Shown here in pieces: positions 4,221 through 58,125 of a DNA stretch of 64,000 bases. The translations under genes were made by a program, and so were the position numbers. The stretch is from Octopus vulgaris. Lineage: Eukaryota. Location of the stretch: assembly GCA_951406725.2 (NCBI GenBank), contig OX597822.1, positions 50,282,001 through 50,346,000 of the forward strand, given 5' to 3'. Each line of letters opens with the position of its first letter. The stretch's first letter is position 1. The notes beneath the pieces are model-generated. The model worked only from the letters and a program-made list of their open reading frames with translations, made no database searches and was not told the DNA's origin.

Positions 4221-4739
4221 ATGAAAATTACTAACATGCCTATAAAAGGGCATTACCTGTGCTAACATAAATAACTCTAGTTAATATTTATCCAAAATAT
4301 TACAGTAGTGTTTTATGATAGCGTACTTACAGAAATATAACAGAGAACACCACCTGTTGTCCGCAATGGGACACCGATCTCTACAATTGGTCAATAACAT
4401 TTGAACCGAGGGCAAATGTTAAAACCGTTCCAATGGATGTGTAAATAAAAGAAAAATGAGTAAATAAGTAATTGGGTGCGGGAGAGAAGACCATGTTAGA
4501 AGTGGTACGAAGCCGTTATATCCTTCTGTAGCTTTTCGACAATACAGAAATAAGAAAAATAAATAGATAAATTCGGTCAAATTAATACAATAAATTATAA
4601 TTAAGGGAGAAACAACTCGTACAGATATTACACCAGAATATATATTTTAAAAAAACTGCTAAAATAAAGCTCCAGTACGAACATTTCAGAGTGTTTAGGT
4701 GTCAATCTGAGTATAGTGCATGCACTAAGAGTGATAAAA

Positions 4740-5699: not shown

Positions 5700-7620
5700 A
5701 TAAAAACACATATAGGAATGTGCAGGCTGCCGTTTTGCACATCAAAGACCCTGCCACATAAACACGAAACAGGTCAGAAACCAACTACCAAAAGAAAAAG
5801 GAATGGACCACGCACCACCTGCCCCAAAACAGAGGTACGCAGATGGGGTAAGTGCTACAAACCGCCAACATGTTATTGAAAGGGCAGCTGCTGAACAAGA
5901 ATCTTTTTTGTGCATGGCACAAAAGAATGTACAGCAGCTAACCTGGTTCCATCAAACTCAAACTCGCAGATGGGACTATCCACAATACACAAGACCGCCA
6001 CAGCAAATAGACCCAAGGTGGACACCGCCGGCAACAGCATACACCTCACCTCGATGCTCCTACTTAACATCAGAGGACTGCTAACACTCAGTAATTGGAT
6101 AAAAATCCCGTTCTTGAGAGACTTTGTTGCATGCAATCAAGCCTTATGCATAGCACTTACGGAAACACACCTGAAACCGGACATAGCAGATGCAGAATTA
6201 CACATACCACAGTATGATGTACTACGGACGGACAGAAAAGAAAGGAGTCATGGAGGAGTTGCTATGTACATCCGTGAGGACCTCACACACCAGGACCTTT
6301 TGTCATACTCAAACTCGGTGTGTGACACACTAATTGTACATATAAGGCAACTTGGTGTAGTTGTGTGTGCTACATATCGCCCTCCAGAAGCCGCAAGACA
6401 TGTAGGCAAGTTTGAATACTGCCTTATAAAAATAGAAGTTCTAGTCACATTAGAAGAACACATAAGTGTAATTCTTATGGGAGACTTCAATCAACCCAAT
6501 GTCAGATGGCCCGAGGGCCTTTCTCTCCCAGAAATGACACGATGTGAACGAGGACAGGCGAGGTCCCTCCTGAACCTCATCAACACTCTGTACATGGAGC
6601 AAGTAATACTCCAACCAACCAGGGCAGGTAACATACTGGATCTCTGCTTCACAAATAATATGGATCTCATCCATAATGTGAAAGTGACACCAACACTACT
6701 CTCGGATCACAACATGGTAGAGCTGACTATGTACGGGCCAAAGGAAAGCATGGACATGCAGCCTACAAGAAACTCTCAGAATCTTTCCAGCTTGAACTTC
6801 CATAAGGCAAACTGGAAATAAATTGAGAAAGAGATCATCAAACAAAACTGGCCTGAATGTCTATCCTCAACAGACATCGACATGAAACTTCAATAATTCA
6901 TGTCTGTAATGCAAGCCATATGCTACAAATGTGTCCCAGAGAGAAAGGCCACTGTACACAAGAGCAAAATCCCCAGAGAGAGGAAAATTCTAATGAGACG
7001 GCGTACAAAAGTTTCAAATCGCCTAAACAAACGAATTGAAAGCAGTGAAAAGTTCCGCCTGAAAATAAAGCTGTTGGAAATTGAAAAATGTCTGTAACTC
7101 TCCCATGAAAAACAAAGAAGCCGGGGCTATAGACAACACAAAATCTAACCCCAGAGCTTCCTACAGGTATGCCAAAGAAACAGCTACGGTGCACTGTAGG
7201 ATAGGGCCACTCCTTGAAGAGGATGGCACACTCACAGGAAATCCAATGAGGGTAAGTGAAATACTAAATGAGCAATTCAAGTGTATTTTCACTCCACCCC
7301 TAGGGAATTTTCAAGTCAGCAATCCAACTGACTTCTTTACCACTGTAGATATAAAATCAGAGGGAGCGATGATTGATTACATCAATATAAAGGAAGACGA
7401 TGTAATAAAGGCTATTGATGAAATGAAAACAAACTCAGCTAAGGATTCCCTTCTAAAAGTATGTAAGAGAGTCCTAGCAAGACCACTGTAGTTCCTCTTT
7501 CAGAGCTTCCTTGCAAGAGTCCTAGCAAGACCACTGTAGTTCCTCTTTCAGAGCTTCCTTGCAACTGGTAAACTCACAAGAAAACTGAAGGAAGGTAAAA
7601 TATGCGCCAAATGGCAATTG
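5700..7620 (+). mobile_element. CR1/L2-group non-LTR retrotransposon: APE endonuclease and ORF2 N-terminal part (pseudogenised)
   Basis: ORF 5910-6821 has APE motifs NIRGL, LTETHL, DR..GGVAMY, YRPP, GDFN, PTR..NILDL and SDH. Downstream frames give NEQFKCIFT with stops and frameshifts. Confidence 0.9.
7468..7563 (+). repeat. Perfect 48-bp tandem duplication inside the LINE
   Basis: agagtcctagcaagaccactgtagttcctctttcagagcttccttgca occurs twice. Confidence 0.9.
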
Positions 7621-32070: not shown

Positions 32071-32553
32071 ATAATAATAATACTAATAATAATAGTAATA
32101 ATAATAATAATGATAATAATAACGATAATATGTTTCCTATATTAGCACAGGCCGCTTCCTCTCGGAGATTACACATTATATCTCGCACGGTTGTATCCAT
32201 GTTAAATCTTTAATCTTGTCATTCTTGTAACCCTCTACCATTGTGACATTCAACTTTTCTCCATCCCATTTCAAATATGATGCTCTTGAAGAACACCAGT
32301 TTTCGGTGTAGTGACAAGGTAGCAGGCACAGAAGGGGTGCAAGAGGATTCCGTCGACGGACTGAGAAAGTTAAACGGGTCGGTTATCAGATCATTTAAAT
32401 CGACTTACGACCAGATGCAACTGTGTATTTCAAGGGAATCGCCAGTTCAATACAAGACTGAAATCGTCTGCCTTCATAAGAATCATCCACAAATGATAGA
32501 CCACCATATAAAAATCTCTGGCTTGAGCCGAAGTGATCGGAGTATCACAAAAG

Positions 32554-32603
<50 letters not shown>

Positions 32604-32609
<6 letters not shown>

Positions 32610-33178
32610 TTATAATTACGCGTATAATTATAATTAGGGTTCAGCAAAGATTTGTTTTACCACATACCGAAGTATAGAAATAGCAGCCAAACAACCTTAG
32701 CTAGTTCTTCTACTATAAGAAGAGACTCCCGGACAAACAAAATACTCGAAATAACCCACGCAGACAGAGAGGAAAAATAACGAAATTCACTCGGTTTCGG
32801 TACTGGACGTTGAATATGATCTGTCCGATACTGTTTTGAATTGGATAGGTATGTTCAATTTTTCCAGTGCTCCAAAATTTAATATTGTGGAATCCTGTGC
32901 TGAAGAGGAAAATCTTTGGGTGAAATATGATTTTTACATTCTTCATACCGATCTAATTCCGAAACGCGTCCACAGGTAATCAAATACCGAGTGAATTTCG
33001 TTATTTTTCCTCTCTGTCTGCGTGGGTTATTTTGAATATTTTGTTTTGTCGGGTAGTCTCTTTTTATAGTAGAAGAAATAGGTAAGGTTCTTTGGCTGCT
33101 ATTTCTAAACTTCGGTATGTGGTAAAGCAAACCCTTGCTGAACTCTAATTATAATTGTTCTCGTAATTATAAAATATT
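32604..33178 (+). mobile_element. Inverted-repeat HHR element, family H1 (PLE pLTR-like)
   Basis: Inverted arms of about 200 bp (32604-32809 and about 32967-33178) flank a spacer with a canonical hammerhead. Abuts (TA)n. Confidence 0.85.
32894..32976 (+). ncRNA. Type I hammerhead ribozyme, canonical core
   Basis: Stem I CCTGTG/CACAGG; CTGAAGA; stem II GGAA/TTCC with a 46-nt loop; GAAA; palindromic ACGCGT stem III; GTC cleavage after 32970. Confidence 0.9.
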
Positions 33179-33489
33179 GTTTAAGTTTACCAAAAAATGG
33201 TCCTTTTAAGAAAGGGATAAATAAAATAATTACTAAAACCATCATGAAATCTGATCAACTAGGCAGAAAAATTCATATGGAAAATATACTTTGTTTAGCA
33301 CGCTAACTAACTATACTATATAGCTTTTATTATATTGTAATATATGTAATGTACATTAATTTCCAAACTAAAAATATTGAAATTAAGTTTCCATCAAAAT
33401 CAGTTCAAGCACAAGACCTATGAAGTCTTACTTTCGAAAATATTTAAAAGTACAGGTTACACTATGTACGCATGATGCCCCGAGGTCTT

Positions 33490-34640
33490 CAGTCGAGCCT
33501 TTGACCGCCCCAAATACAGAGAACACTTATGGGGGTATCCCACATTTTAAATATCTCCATGCATTCTCTGCCAAATACGCTTCATGATTTTTTCCAACAC
33601 ATAAATATTTCCCCGTTTCGTTTTACCTCGAAAAGTTACATTGCAAATGCATTCACCGATAAAATACAATTTCCTCCAAGTAACACTACATGCTGTTTTA
33701 TTTGATCTAAATAATTTCGGCTGGTTTTACCAGGAAACAATCTCTGCATTGGATTTCTTCTATGTCATATCTTACTTTTAATATCATGTCGCAATGTTCT
33801 GAAGTTTCTGTAGTGTTCTATCGCAGTTCATTTACAGCTTTGTAAGATTTCGTTCTGATTTCTGCATCCTTTTTAGCAGTAAGTCCCTGTGCAAAACTCA
33901 GGCATTTAAACGAATCTGGAGTTAGTTTATCCAGTTTAAAACTCTCGCATTCCCTGTTCACTCTACCTGCATACGTAGTAATATTCTTCGTCATCACTTT
34001 TCTCAATGTTCAAACACTTCCAACGAGTGTTGAACAGTGAGGTTTTTTCACTGAACATCTTATATAAAATGTCAATTCTGCCCATAAAACTTGTCAGAAG
34101 ATTTTATAGACTGTATTAAGTTACTGGACTTTTCCTGCTCAGTTGCTGCCAGCTCCCTCAAAATTAGACGTGTTTTCATTTCAGTAATATGCCTTGAAGG
34201 TGACTCCTTCTTCCGAGTCATATTTAAATTGATTTATTGAATTTGCTACATGGTCTGGCGAAAACATATTTTCCAGGTTGGTTATCAACTTCATAAGTTC
34301 ATAACTTCATTTGTTGTAACATTTGTTGTTGCTTTTGGTCTTTGAGTTGTCGTTGTTGCTGTTTTTGCAACTCGAATAAACCCGCCAACATGTTCACCAT
34401 AATTTTTGGTATAATACGTACTACAAAGCGTTTGTTACTCCTCTGTCGAGATGTTAATTTCTCAACGCCTAATATTTCTTTTTTAATTGCTCCGCGTGAA
34501 TGTTTTTTGAACGCTTATTTTCTCGTCACCACTGCTATGTTGTGGTGCTTTCCACAGTTAGAATGTGTGGCGACTGTTGTTACTGTAGCTGTTGTATCTA
34601 CCCTAGCAGCCACGATATTTTCTTGGTATCGTATACAACG
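33490..34640 (-). mobile_element. Ty3/Gypsy LTR retrotransposon remnant: LTR end, PBS and gag
   Basis: FSEKTSLFNTRWKCLN..TTYAGRVNRECESFKL..FKCLSFAQGL..DAEIRTK. PBS-like TGGTGACGAG at 34530-34521 follows the LTR end. Confidence 0.75.
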
Positions 34641-40266: not shown

Positions 40267-40430
40267 ATATGTATATATGTATATGTATGTATGTACATAT
40301 ATGTATATCATTTTAAATTAATAATAAAAGGGTAACATTTATCAATTAAATTAATTAATTAATCAATCAATTAATTAATAATTTTACCAAGTAGATCGTT
40401 AAGTTCAAATAACATTCATAGGTAAAATTA

Positions 40431-40956
40431 TACAAATATTTTATAATTTCAAAGATAATTATAATTAGGGTTCAGCTAATTGCTTCACCACATACCGAAT
40501 TTAGAAATAAAAGTTAAAAATTCCATGATAGAATACTGCAGTTTTCTGCGGTACTGCTGGTAGCATATACGTGTGTATAGGAGATGGATAGTGTATTCAC
40601 ATTCGGCTCTTTAATTTTGGAAGTGTGGGTTGGATATATTTTACATGATGTCGCTCGATCGTGTGCATATTTAACCCTAGCACTTCCAAATTTTATAATT
40701 GAAATTACTACACTGAAGAGAGAAGTAAGTAAATTTTTAAGCCCTTTAATCTCGAAACGCGTATGTAGTTAATCTTGGTCGTGTTGATCCACTGTTTTTC
40801 TCTTTGCCTACGTAAAAAGAATATTTTACTGTCATGAGATTCTTACAGTAGTAGAAAAGAAATTTTTAAGTCCTATTTCTAAATTTGGTATGTGGTGAAG
40901 TAATTAGCTGAAACCTAATTATTCTTTTGTTTATATGTTTATAATCATAAAATATT

Positions 40957-40960
<4 letters not shown>
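40431..40960 (+). mobile_element. Inverted-repeat HHR element, family H1, second diverged copy
   Basis: Arms tacaaatatttta..ttcagctaatt.cttcaccacatacc.aatttagaaata and their inverse are homologous to 32604-33178. Abuts (TA)n. Confidence 0.85.
40707..40769 (+). ncRNA. Type I hammerhead ribozyme, canonical core
   Basis: Stem I ACTACA/TGTAGT; CTGAAGA; stem II GAGA/TCTC with a 26-nt loop; GAAA; ACGCGT; GTA cleavage after 40763. Confidence 0.9.
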
Positions 40961-44609: not shown

Positions 44610-46445
44610 ATTATTATTATTATTACTATTACTTTTTTTTTCTTCTTTCAAATTTGCTTCCATTTCTTGCCGAGTGTCTTCCCAACTCCTAGGGCAAAGA
44701 AACTCATAGTATACATTGGTAGGCCATTTAACCAAACTCAATAGTTCGTTCATTTTTTTTATTTATTTTTTTTAAGTTAAATTAAAATACATGAGCAGCA
44801 ACAGTTCTCACATCGACAATGCTCTTCTCAATACGTGTGATGTACCAGTTAAGACAATCTTTTGCACTTCTTGCAGGGATGGTAAGTCAGGGATCATTCT
44901 CATATAATTTTCGGTTCCCTTCTTGATCATTCCTAGTGCTCCTACGATCACTGGTATTGTAACCGCCTTGAGATGCCACATTTTCTCAATTTCAATGAGT
45001 AGGTCTTTATATTTTCTGAGCTTGTCAAACTCTTTCGCTGAGATATTATGGTCACAGGGGATGCTCATGTCGATCAATAAGCAAACTTTATTGTTTTGGT
45101 CTTTCACAACAATATCTGGTTTATTGGCCTTGATGGTTCGGTCTGTATGTACTGGAAAGTCCCACAGAATGGTTACATTTTCTCCTTCAGTTACAGCCTC
45201 AGGGTGGTGATTATACCACTTGTCGGCAGTTTTGATATTGTAATGCCGACTTATTAGCCAGTGTAGATATTGGCCAACTCTGTCATGTCTTAATTTATAC
45301 TCCACTGGAGCTAAGACTTTACATCCAGAGATTAGGTGGTCCACTGTTTCAATCATGTCGTTGCAGAATCGGCATTTTGGGTCTGCTCCATTTTTCATCA
45401 CATTGGCCTGGTAGTTCCGGGTTAATAGCAGCCAGGATGAAACCTTTGCTCTCTGCTTTTAGCCCTGAGATCCGTAGCCACTGATGGGTTTGCTTCTGGT
45501 CAACATCAGCTTGTTTGCTGCGGGTCACATATTTGCCGTGCAGAGGTTTCTCCTCCCACCTATCAGCCAATTGCTCGTGCGCTTTTTTCGTTGCCATTAT
45601 TTTCACCTTCTTTGCAACAATAATTGCCGTACTTCCCTCGGGTTGTTCTGTTTGGGTATCCTGCACGAGATCAATAGCAAATTTTTTGCTTTCCTTTATA
45701 ATAGAATGAAGCTTCTTTCGTCTCTCGTGATTTTCCACGAGCTTTAGCATCCAGTCATTCGATATTTCGAGATATTTGGCCAGTCCAATTGTGGTTGTTT
45801 TGTAAGCTAGTTCAAATTGGATCAGGCCTCGACCTCCTTGGGCTCTGGGAAGGTAAAGGCGATCTACGTCTGCCTTTGGGTGGTGCATCCTATTACAACT
45901 CAGCAGCTTGCGTATTTTCCTATCTATATTCTTTACTTCACTCATATTCCAGTTCAACACATTGTAGCTATAAGTAACAACTGGAACTGCTAAGGAATTT
46001 ATAGCTAACACCTTGTTACGTGCATTTAGTTCAGATTTCAGGACTGCACCAACTCTCCTATAACATTCATTCCTGATCTTCTCTTTCATGCTTGCATGCT
46101 GAATACCAGAGCCTTCATTTATCCCTAAATATTTGTATGTTTGTTCTTGCTCAAGCTCTCTTATGACTGTGTCAACATCTAACACGACTGAATTTGTGGT
46201 CTTCACTTTCCCTTTCTGGAAAGTGGCCTTGGCACACTTCTCAAGTCCAAACTCCATCCCGATGTCATCGCTGAATGCTTTCACAGTGCACAATAGGCCT
46301 TCAAGTTCATTATTGTCTTTACCATAAAGTTTTAAGTCATCCATATAAAATAGATGGCTTATTTTTTTATTGGCAATTTTATACCCATACCCTGTTCTGT
46401 TTAATTCAATTGTAAGGGGTATTAGGGCTATGCAGAATATTAAAG
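44610..46445 (-). mobile_element. 5'-truncated Dong/R4-clade (RLE-type) non-LTR retrotransposon, young
   Basis: RT YMDDLKLY, KYLG, RLYLPRAQGGRGL; CRFC..ETVDHLISGC; RHD; PDIVV..ID..K..KY endonuclease. One frameshift near 45420. (TAA)n at both ends. Confidence 0.92.
44808..46445 (-). pseudogene. Partial RT-CCHC-RLE polyprotein of the Dong/R4 element
   Basis: ORFs 45349-46344 and 44808-45401 join across a small deletion (GFILAA..TRNYQANVMKNG). Confidence 0.88.
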
Positions 46446-46451
46446 GTGAAA

Positions 46452-46518
<67 letters not shown>

Positions 46519-56450: not shown

Positions 56451-57229
56451 AGCTCAGTGATTTTATTTGGTATACATCAAGTTGAGTATGTTTATTTTTT
56501 AGTATTTGAACTGTTAGATTATTTTCGCAATTTACCCAGTACAACCCTTACACAAGTAAATAGTATTTTCCTAAGCAATACATCCATTCATTTCGGTTAG
56601 TGACTTATTCATGAATATACCATGAATGGCAATGCTTTTCTTGTCACTTCAGCCAACTGACAAGCGCTGCGTGAAGAACTGTTCCGTTTTCCGACAAATG
56701 CAGTCAGCACAAAGGTCACACCTTAATTACATATAGGAACACCTTAATTTATATTGATAGAGGTGCTAATGATTCTAACAACCAACCACACAAACATACA
56801 GACATCGTCATTTGTCTATCAATAATATTGCAATCTACACTGTTCTCATATAGTTCACACGCTGTTTACTTCTAGGAACATTTTCGTAATTCATATTGAT
56901 AGCTGTGATATTTTCTTTACGATATACACTTTACTTATCTTTAACGGCCAAGGGGAAATAACCCATGTAAAATCTCTTATTTTTCTTTTCCACCAACCGG
57001 TCATTTGCACTGTCATAAAGGTCACTTTCTTAAAAAAAAATCAATATTAGATTCACCTATTTCGGTTAGTGACCTATTCACGAATATATCATGAATGACG
57101 ATAATCTATCATGTCACATCAGCCAACTGACAGCCGTTGCATGAATAACTGCTTTTAAACAAATGCACTGTTATCACATATGTCACACCATGTTTACATG
57201 TAGGAACACCTTAATGATGTTGCTCATGG

Positions 57230-58125
57230 GAAGTGCCACAGTCTTGCTTGCACAAGACTTTATACAAACTACTTCTGTGGTTCCAAAGGAGACAAGAGCT
57301 AGTGAAGTAAATACCAGCATAAAGTCGTCCTACCTATGGAGCTGTGTGCGAAAGCTAAGACTCACAACCAACATGACAGTGCAGCTCAGTGATAATGATG
57401 CAATCGGAACCTTTTCAAAGCAATTGTTGGATGTTGTTAATCATACGTCGGTTGGCCAGAAGGATGGCCAGGCAAGCTTGCCTTTTGGACATACGATATC
57501 TGATTTAAAAGAACTAATGTATAAGGTGATTCCTAACCCAAGGAATCAGTTTACAGACCACACCTGGCTGGAACCCTTGCCAGTTTCGCTCCAAAGAATG
57601 TGGCAGTTGATTATTTGAACTTTAAATTCTACAGTTCTATTGACGCTGTACTCAACATCGTTGAAGCTTTGAATTATCCAGTTGATTTCTTGAATCGTAT
57701 AACACCACCTGGTCTCCCACCTCACAACTTGCACCTATTCTACTACTTTGAAACATCGACTCACCAAAGCTTTGCAATGGTACACGACTTATCATAAAGA
57801 AGATGATGCCAAGAGTCTTAGAGACAAAAAATTTGCCTGGTAAAACAAGCGGTGAACCTGTATTCATTCCTAGAATCCCGCTTATTCCCTCGTATATGCC
57901 TTTCCAGTACAAGCGCCTGGAATTCCGGTTGCAAGCGAGCTTTGAAATGAGTATTAACAATGTTCAGGAGCGGTCCTTGGATGCGGTAGCTCTGAACTTT
58001 GGGGAACCGGTTTTCTACTATGGCCAACATTATGTGGTATGCTCAAGAGGAGGAAATCGTAATGATTTGTTTATTCATGCTCCACAAGGAAAGGACAAAG
58101 CTGTTGTTTATCAAGCCCTGCAAAC
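57230..58125 (+). pseudogene. Helitron PIF1-family helicase C-terminal pseudogene
   Basis: LAQDFIQT..IKSSYLW..LTTNM; YPVDFLN..PPGLPPHNL; LCNGTRL; VFIPRIPLIP..SINNVQ..GQHYVVCSR. Confidence 0.88.

What the first reader, a model, noticed from the sequence alone, without database searches (positions are those of the whole stretch)
32604..33178. Canonical hammerhead between 200-bp inverted arms, with the inverted arm ending at the cleavage site
Seen: an intact type-I HHR (CCTGTG-CTGAAGA-GGAA-46 nt-TTCC-GAAA-CGCG-TC^CACAGG). The right arm begins at the ribozyme 3' strand, and the left arm is its inverse, ending ..tggacg (32804-32809), the complement of cgtc^ca. Established: PLE insertions often carry an inverted, truncated pLTR. 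Inference: the left arm is a cDNA copy of a self-cleaved RNA whose 5' end was set by the ribozyme, followed by a second opposite-polarity synthesis. The result looks like a MITE but is a retroelement. The stem II loop is unusually long for a minimal PLE HHR.
Basis: partly seen in the sequence, partly recalled or inferred. Interest (0 to 1): 0.85.

Follow-up and report, generated by a model that had tools for sequence, protein, structure and literature searches.

The report
Mirror-image Penelope insertion with hammerhead
This is a shortened, non-coding copy of a Penelope-type jumping element with a hammerhead ribozyme motif, and its mirror-image arm does not stop at the predicted cut site; in three element families of this genome the two outer ends of such mirror insertions nearly always lie at two different fixed sites, which likely means both halves are copied from RNA as the element lands.

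Summary
The type I hammerhead is real and covaries across copies, and the 192-bp inverted arms are real (91%). The headline claim is wrong. The arm ends at 32795, mirroring 32986, 16 nt past the predicted cleavage site. TGGACG belongs to the forward body, in a conserved family hairpin. Across 53 inverted copies, arm inner ends span -348 to +285; 1 lies within 5 nt of the cleavage site and 14 run through it.

The element is a 5'-truncated member of a non-coding, partial-tandem (~600 bp unit), (TA)n-associated Penelope-like/retrozyme family. It is not a MITE.

The more useful result is an end rule. The family ends at site A or at site B (A plus a ~100-nt tail). Inverted insertions pair A with B in 39 of 41 classifiable copies, 12 of 12 in a sister family and 9 of 9 in an autonomous Penelope-like family. 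In 11 of 17 cases the short arm is largely absent from the long arm, which excludes fold-back copying for those. Best model (inferred): the two target strands are primed at two different RT start sites. 'Tail at one end' is known qualitatively; I found no count of it in print.

The parts
32556..32603 (.). (TA)n microsatellite abutting the arm's outer end; inferred insertion target
   Evidence: 47 of 55 solo copies have TA-rich sequence after the 3' end, 29 of 39 A+B copies at both outer ends
32604..32795 (-). Inverted, 5'-truncated copy covering +16..+208 relative to the cleavage site; outer end at preferred terminus A
32790..32802 (.). Central junction: 1 extra T between arm and body. The arm's expected continuation and the body start share TCGGTA (6-nt microhomology)
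   Evidence: over 53 inverted junctions 29 overlap, 22 have inserts, 2 are blunt by BLAST ends
32797..33207 (+). Forward body of family A, -173..+237; 5'-truncated; 93% identical to natural copy L006
32799..32871 (+). Conserved long hairpin upstream of the ribozyme; contains the TGGACG hexamer
   Evidence: -35.2 kcal/mol, z -7.46, 0 of 200 shuffles; 26 consensus pairs in 34 copies, kept mostly by one-sided G-U changes, only 2 pairs with two-sided change
32894..32976 (+). Type I hammerhead motif; helix I 6 bp, helix II 4 bp plus extension, helix III 1 bp capped by palindromic CGCG; predicted cleavage after 32970
33165..33178 (+). Preferred terminus A (+208)
   Evidence: 29 of 55 solo copies end in the A window
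33179..33207 (+). First 29 nt of the ~103-nt tail between termini A and B; the rest is missing, probably lost by a later deletion
33208..33488 (.). Internal fragment of an unrelated dispersed repeat, joined at a TTT microhomology
40310..40960 (+). Sister family B element: inverted arm 40310-40524 ending at B, forward body 40524-40960 ending at A, hammerhead about 40707-40769

Best explanation
This is a 5'-truncated insertion of a non-coding, hammerhead-bearing, partial-tandem repeat family, with an adjoining inverted copy of its own 3' part, likely mobilised in trans by a Penelope-like RT/GIY-YIG enzyme that likely primed one cDNA on each strand of a (TA)n target. SHOWN: the family unit is about 574-600 bp with one hammerhead, occurs as partial tandems with no ORF, ends at two preferred termini (A, and B = A plus ~103 nt), sits next to (TA)n, and pairs A with B in inverted copies. 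INFERRED: A and B are the two internal RT start sites; one cDNA starts at each, on opposite target strands; the two 5'-truncated cDNAs join head-to-head at short microhomologies or with filler bases. The tendency of B-primed short arms to stop near A suggests both primings often happen on one RNA (twin priming), with strand displacement or a second or multimeric RNA explaining arms that overlap. In this copy the left arm is the A product; the right half is probably the B product, later clipped inside the tail. The hammerhead is a passenger in this event: by its helix III it would cleave efficiently only as a dimer in tandem transcripts.
For: Partial tandems and no ORF: L006, L054, L055, L058, L076, L165; longest stop-free stretch 98 aa. 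End classes in 55 solo copies: 29 A, 22 B, 4 other. Inverted copies: 39 A+B, 2 A+A, 0 B+B of 41 classifiable among 53, Fisher p 9e-10. Family B: 12 A+B of 12 clearly classifiable among 18 inverted in 28 loci, read by hand. Autonomous 781-aa RT + GIY-YIG family: 9 of 9 inverted copies are tail + no tail; 7 of these are all the head-to-head pairs among the first 100 of 733 pattern hits, where 27 of 100 carry the tail base, so p about 0.0015 for 7 and 2e-4 for 9. Short B arms median 90 nt vs short A arms 142 nt (Mann-Whitney p 0.02); 11 of 17 short B arms are at least 75% absent from the long arm. Literature: PAc cleaves and extends both target strands, starts RT at two internal sites bounding the tail, is predicted dimeric and does not need its hammerhead in vitro (PMC11167929). 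Dimer cofold pairs the ACGCGU palindromes, -45.5 vs 2 x -19.3 kcal/mol.
Against: The mobilising element was not identified: the young 781-aa family has a different pLTR, with no BLAST match to family A. In most A+B copies (about 24 of 39) the B half runs past site A, which simple single-RNA twin priming does not predict. Two A+A copies exist (L007, L189), and family B L265 ends 21 nt beyond B opposite a B end. This very copy is not classifiable (A plus +237). The A and B windows and the 137-nt cut-off were set after seeing the data, ends come from BLAST (a few nt of error), and copies are the top-scoring hits of several queries, not a census. No RNA evidence.
Confidence: 0.7

Rival explanations
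1. One reading: the left arm is cDNA of a self-cleaved RNA whose 5' end was set by the hammerhead.
For: The hammerhead is intact. 3 of 161 inner ends lie at +1/+2 and 12 of 161 within -15..+10. The head 32796-32826 has weak complementarity to the ribozyme 3' half (shuffle p 0.024).
Against: The arm ends at +16, and TGGACG is forward body in a family hairpin. 1 of 53 arms ends within 5 nt of the cut and 14 span it. The adjacent window +11..+55 holds 14 ends, so there is no sharp peak. 28 of 380 body windows score as well against the same target.
Confidence: 0.05
2. The arm arose by fold-back or self-priming on the element's own cDNA or on an antisense template, followed by staggered endonuclease resolution that leaves the tail at one end (ideas in PMC3846280 and PMC8557442).
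For: It explains A+B when the long half ends at B and the short arm lies inside it (most of the 21 such copies, and probably this one). Junction overlaps are common (29 of 53).
Against: 11 of 17 short B arms are mostly absent from the long arm, so they cannot have been copied from it. Both outer ends run into TA in 29 of 39. An antisense or multimeric template could rescue this model; I could not test that.
Confidence: 0.2
3. It is a MITE, a non-autonomous DNA transposon with long terminal inverted repeats that happens to contain a hammerhead.
For: 192-bp arms at 91% identity and TA-rich flanks.
Against: 55 of 108 copies have no arm; arm length varies more than 20-fold; the two outer ends differ by about 100 nt; copies are 5'-truncated and form partial tandems.
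Confidence: 0.02
4. Two independent insertions into the same (TA)n tract happened to land head-to-head.
For: Several PLE families pile into the same TA tracts (L136, L155, L170).
Against: There is no TA spacer at the central junction (median gap near 0). About half of sampled copies are inverted. Independent events would give A+A and B+B about half the time.
Confidence: 0.03

Closest known systems
Endonuclease-bearing Penelope-like element insertions with an inverted 5'-truncated pLTR and optional tail (PMC8557442, PMC3846280, PMC2377424; passages read)
   Same: 5' truncation, partial tandems, adjoining head-to-head inverted copy, tail at one end, (TA)n bias, hammerhead in the repeat.
   Different: No ORF in any sampled copy; tail about 103 nt rather than 30-40 nt; autonomous partner not found; the A+B pairing is counted here as a near-absolute rule.
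Metazoan non-LTR retrozymes (PMC7229834, passages; bioRxiv 10.64898/2026.07.22.740005, part 1 of 5 and passages)
   Same: Non-coding repeat unit, one type I hammerhead per unit, low GC, dispersed monomers plus tandem copies, proposed PLE origin.
   Different: Unit about 570-600 bp against about 170-400 nt reported; mostly 1 to 1.4 units, with a two-hammerhead tandem seen only in L165; circular RNA and cleavage untested.
Canonical metazoan type I hammerhead with weak palindromic helix III (PMC4209133, parts 1-2 of 4; axolotl HHR_Amex1 in PMC7229834)
   Same: Helix I 6 bp, helix II 4 bp, helix III 1 bp plus palindromic tetraloop; predicted to work as a dimer.
   Different: 46-nt extension of helix II (about 26 nt in family B); loop 1-loop 2 tertiary contacts not tested.
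PAc (Poseidon, Anolis) in vitro mechanism (PMC11167929, parts 1-2 of 4)
   Same: Two internal RT start sites bounding the tail, AT-rich target, both strands cut and extended, hammerhead dispensable.
   Different: That paper reports no difference in start site between top and bottom strand in bulk, and the parts I read do not address pairing of start sites within one insertion.
LINE-1 twin priming (PMC2837659, listing abstract only; mechanism details recalled)
   Same: Inverted, truncated 5' part made during target-primed reverse transcription; 11 of 17 short arms are non-redundant with the long arm.
   Different: Here both start sites are fixed and internal, and the halves often overlap.

Membership tests
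Type I hammerhead ribozyme | Core CUGANGA / GAAA / NUH with helices I-III | tested here: met
Type I hammerhead ribozyme | Covariation of helices across copies | tested here: met
   9 of 11 pairs with two-sided change; 0 of 500 shuffles reach 93.7% paired
Type I hammerhead ribozyme | Self-cleavage activity | not testable with these tools
   needs in vitro assay
Penelope-like element (autonomous) | RT + GIY-YIG ORF inside the element | tested here: not met
   no ORF in the unit; no tblastn hit of the 781-aa PLE protein in the window
PLE-derived non-autonomous element | 5' truncation, partial tandems, adjoining inverted 5' copy | tested here: met
PLE-derived non-autonomous element | Optional tail giving two 3' termini | tested here: met
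   51 of 55 solo ends at A or B; the tail is longer than the usual 30-40 nt
PLE-derived non-autonomous element | Microsatellite (TA)n insertion bias | tested here: met
   47 of 55 solo 3' ends against 18 of 55 5' ends
PLE-derived non-autonomous element | Sequence homology to the pLTR of an autonomous PLE in the genome | tested here: inconclusive
   no pLTR match among the 30 of 148 GIY-YIG loci examined, only neighbouring insertions; 7 extended loci gave none
Non-LTR retrozyme | Tandem non-coding units each with a type I hammerhead | tested here: met
   L165: two same-strand hammerheads 574 bp apart; most copies are under 1.4 units
Non-LTR retrozyme | Expressed as linear and circular monomer RNA | tested here: inconclusive
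   no listed holder on record as RNA; contigs only
MITE | Fixed symmetric terminal inverted repeats in all copies | tested here: not met
   55 of 108 lack arms; outer ends differ
MITE | Fixed target-site duplication | tested here: inconclusive
   (TA)n flanks hide any TSD

The most novel reading that the evidence does not exclude
Head-to-head Penelope-like insertions are made by obligate asymmetric twin priming: a dimeric RT/GIY-YIG enzyme bound to one RNA nicks both strands of a (TA)n target, and one subunit starts at site A while the other starts at site B. The 'optional tail' is then the footprint of the dimer, and every inverted insertion must carry it at exactly one end.
Probability: 0.4. 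Interest if true: 0.72.

Novelty: new member of a known kind. Interest (0 to 1): 0.45.

Why it matters
The family sample does bear on an open question. Craig et al. 2021 name the formation of tandem and inverted PLE structures as something an in vitro system still has to explain. A near-absolute pairing of the two termini (60 of 62 classifiable inverted insertions over three families, one of them autonomous and young) links the two RT start sites found in vitro to the inverted structures seen in genomes, and gives a prediction that the existing PAc assay can test with single-molecule sequencing. It also warns that such inserts look like MITEs and can be mis-annotated.

Tried and rejected
Rfam: no hit at gathering threshold in the window; at E<=10 only hairpin-type chance hits such as MIR2630, far below threshold. 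mis-set the cleavage coordinate because reference copy L006 has a mutated core; corrected, and all relative coordinates here use the corrected origin. Search for the autonomous partner: a GIY-YIG scan gave 148 matches, 30 examined, plus 7 extended loci; no pLTR homologous to family A was found. A resemblance by eye between the 3' ends of family A and the 781-aa family was not supported by BLAST at E 0.01. Anti-ribozyme pairing of the head with the hammerhead 3' half: weak (p 0.024) and explained better by the local hairpin. An apparent pile-up of forward 5' ends near -171..-190 was not used, because the first query began at -173. A cluster at -401..-403 (5 copies) is unexplained and partly exposed to query bias. 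Expression: no RNA holder listed; 4 of 24 runs were laid, all contigs, uninformative on ends or strand. Earlier-findings look-ups by sequence and place returned nothing. Literature searches for PLE twin priming or a count of tail pairing returned nothing relevant; the library lacks most subscription papers, I did not read Evgen'ev & Arkhipova 2005 or Arkhipova 2006, and I read no supplements, any of which may already state the rule. No tree was built; 'Neptune/Nematis-type' for the 781-aa ORF rests only on its CX4CX2C motif upstream of GIY-YIG (motif definition).

Full report
OBSERVATION. Rfam misses it. A core pattern occurs 176 times in the 2.8-Gb own genome against 0 for the reversed control. 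In 55 distinct copies 93.7% of cells pair, 9 of 11 pairs show two-sided changes, and shuffled and slid controls fall far below. Helix III is one A-U pair capped by palindromic CGCG. PMC4209133 (parts 1-2 of 4 read) calls this architecture canonical for metazoans and says such a helix III impedes monomer cleavage but allows a dimer; a two-copy cofold pairs the palindromes (-45.5 vs 2 x -19.3 kcal/mol). The 46-nt 'loop' folds as a helix II extension. The arms are 32604-32795 and 32986-33178, 91% identical.

THE HEADLINE CLAIM FAILS. Genome copies match the query from 32797 onward as one forward unit, and upstream they continue in family sequence, not in an inverted arm. TCGGTACTGGACG is therefore forward body. 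The motif, in family context, was found in 35 of 62 copies that run through this stretch (strict regex). It forms the 5' strand of a 73-nt hairpin (z -7.5) conserved in 34 copies, mostly through G-U-tolerant changes. The arm's inner end mirrors +16 relative to the cut. The junction has one extra T, at a point where arm continuation and body share TCGGTA.

THE FAMILY. From 161 loci plus 31 later ones I kept 110 distinct insertions after removing identical re-finds, then dropped L062 and L063 as duplicates of the L061 segment, leaving 108. These are top-scoring hits of several queries, not a census. The unit is a partial tandem: L006 repeats with a 597-bp offset, and L165 has two same-strand hammerheads 574 bp apart. 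There is no ORF (longest stop-free stretch 98 aa). Copies are 5'-truncated and end at site A (+180..+223; 29 of 55 solo copies) or site B (+286..+314; 22 of 55). 47 of 55 solo 3' ends run into TA-rich sequence against 18 of 55 5' ends. This matches the described structure of endonuclease-bearing PLE insertions: partial tandems, adjoining inverted 5' copy, optional tail, (TA)n bias (PMC8557442 passages; PMC3846280 passages). It also matches non-LTR retrozymes (PMC7229834 passages; bioRxiv 10.64898/2026.07.22.740005). It does not fit a MITE. In this copy the right end (+237) joins an internal position of an unrelated repeat at a TTT microhomology, so a B end was probably lost later (inference).

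BREAKPOINT TEST. 53 of 108 copies have an adjoining inverted arm. Inner ends run from -348 to +285; 1 is within 5 nt of the cut and 14 arms span it. Pooling 161 inner ends, 3 lie at +1/+2 (Poisson p 0.02 against the local rate; 0.11 if L101 is dropped, whose flank resembles another part of the element). Counts are 12 in -15..+10, 14 in +11..+55 and 7 in -60..-16. One query began at +1, so this is at most a weak hint. It fits PAc, where hammerhead mutants did not change insertion and no reads ended at the cleavage site (PMC11167929).

THE END RULE. Of the 53 inverted copies, 41 have both outer ends at A or B: 21 A+B, 18 B+A, 2 A+A, 0 B+B (Fisher p 9e-10); 12 have one end elsewhere, this copy among them. 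The class windows were set after seeing the data. Sister family B, which has a second copy in the window at 40310-40960, gave 18 inverted copies in 28 loci: 12 clear A+B, no clear homotypic pair, 6 unclassed, of which L265 is closest to B+B (read by hand). A young autonomous family encodes a 781-aa RT + GIY-YIG ORF and has a 38-nt tail. Among the first 100 of 733 exact end matches, 27 carry the tail base (hand count), and all 7 head-to-head pairs are one with and one without. Six were fetched and verified and the seventh was already held as L164; with two more that makes 9 of 9 (p about 2e-4 under independence, 0.0015 for the 7). Short B arms are shorter than short A arms (medians 90 and 142 nt, p 0.02; L014 left out as complex). 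11 of 17 short B arms are at least 75% absent from the long arm, so they cannot be fold-back copies of it.

MECHANISM. Shown: the anatomy, the two termini, the TA association and the A+B pairing. From the literature: PAc cuts and extends both target strands, starts at two internal sites that bound the tail, and is predicted to be a dimer. Inferred: each target strand primes one cDNA, one at A and one at B, and the truncated products join head-to-head. B arms that stop near A suggest one shared RNA in part of the cases. About 24 of 39 B halves pass A, which needs strand displacement or a second or multimeric RNA. The main rival is fold-back or antisense self-priming with staggered resolution (PMC3846280, PMC8557442); it covers many copies but not the non-redundant arms. 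The mobilising enzyme is unidentified: 30 of 148 GIY-YIG loci and 7 extended loci showed no pLTR homologous to family A. RNA evidence is lacking (see Tried and rejected).

NOVELTY AND VERDICT. The element is a new member of a known kind. That the tail sits at one end of inverted PLE insertions is in print qualitatively. Four searches found no count of the pairing and no twin-priming model for PLEs, but the library is partial and I read no supplements. Observation partly confirmed; interpretation partly supported; interest 0.45, carried by the end rule and not by the ribozyme-breakpoint idea.

Noticed in passing
window 40310-40960: Second inverted insertion, sister family B (unit about 564 bp, 74-76% identical to family A over the terminal region), with a shorter helix II and a GUA cleavage triplet; B+A ends.
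   Followed up: yes
L159 2245-4587 (G000:C16): Young autonomous Penelope-like family: 781-aa RT + GIY-YIG ORF, many identical copies, 733 exact end matches, 38-nt tail. Its pLTR holds only an atypical hammerhead-like core (UGAUAAG ... GAAACAUGUUA).
   Followed up: partly
L309 and L314: Two short arms of the autonomous family end at the same base, 62 nt upstream of terminus A and just 3' of the hammerhead-like motif; possible RT stop, only 2 cases.
   Followed up: no
L249 about 918-922 and L250 about 4612-4615: Family A units joined directly, in sense and without a TA spacer, to 5'-truncated ORFs of two different PLE families; could be RT template jumps or nested insertion.
   Followed up: partly
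L007, L014, L016, L018, L072: Five forward 5' ends at -401..-403, close to site A of the preceding repeat unit, all in inverted copies; unexplained.
   Followed up: partly
window 33046-33147 and its mirror 32604-32705: Much higher contig depth than the rest of the element in all 4 runs laid, suggesting a terminal motif shared by further families; candidate enzyme-recognition sequence.
   Followed up: no
window 32150-32560 and about 33800-34000: Broken fragments resembling LTR-retrotransposon (Ty3/Gypsy-like) coding sequence on either side; resemblance recalled, not searched.
   Followed up: no
window 5895-6821 (+), 44808-46452 (-), 57145-57618 (+): LINE-type endonuclease fragment, RT plus zf-RVT fragments, and a PIF1-like helicase fragment.
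   Followed up: no
window 33208-33488: Fragment of another AT-rich dispersed repeat, 49 matches in the genome; class not determined.
   Followed up: partly
L137 455 (+) and 3057 (-): A further hammerhead motif of different sequence, in inverted arrangement around a Penelope-like ORF.
   Followed up: no
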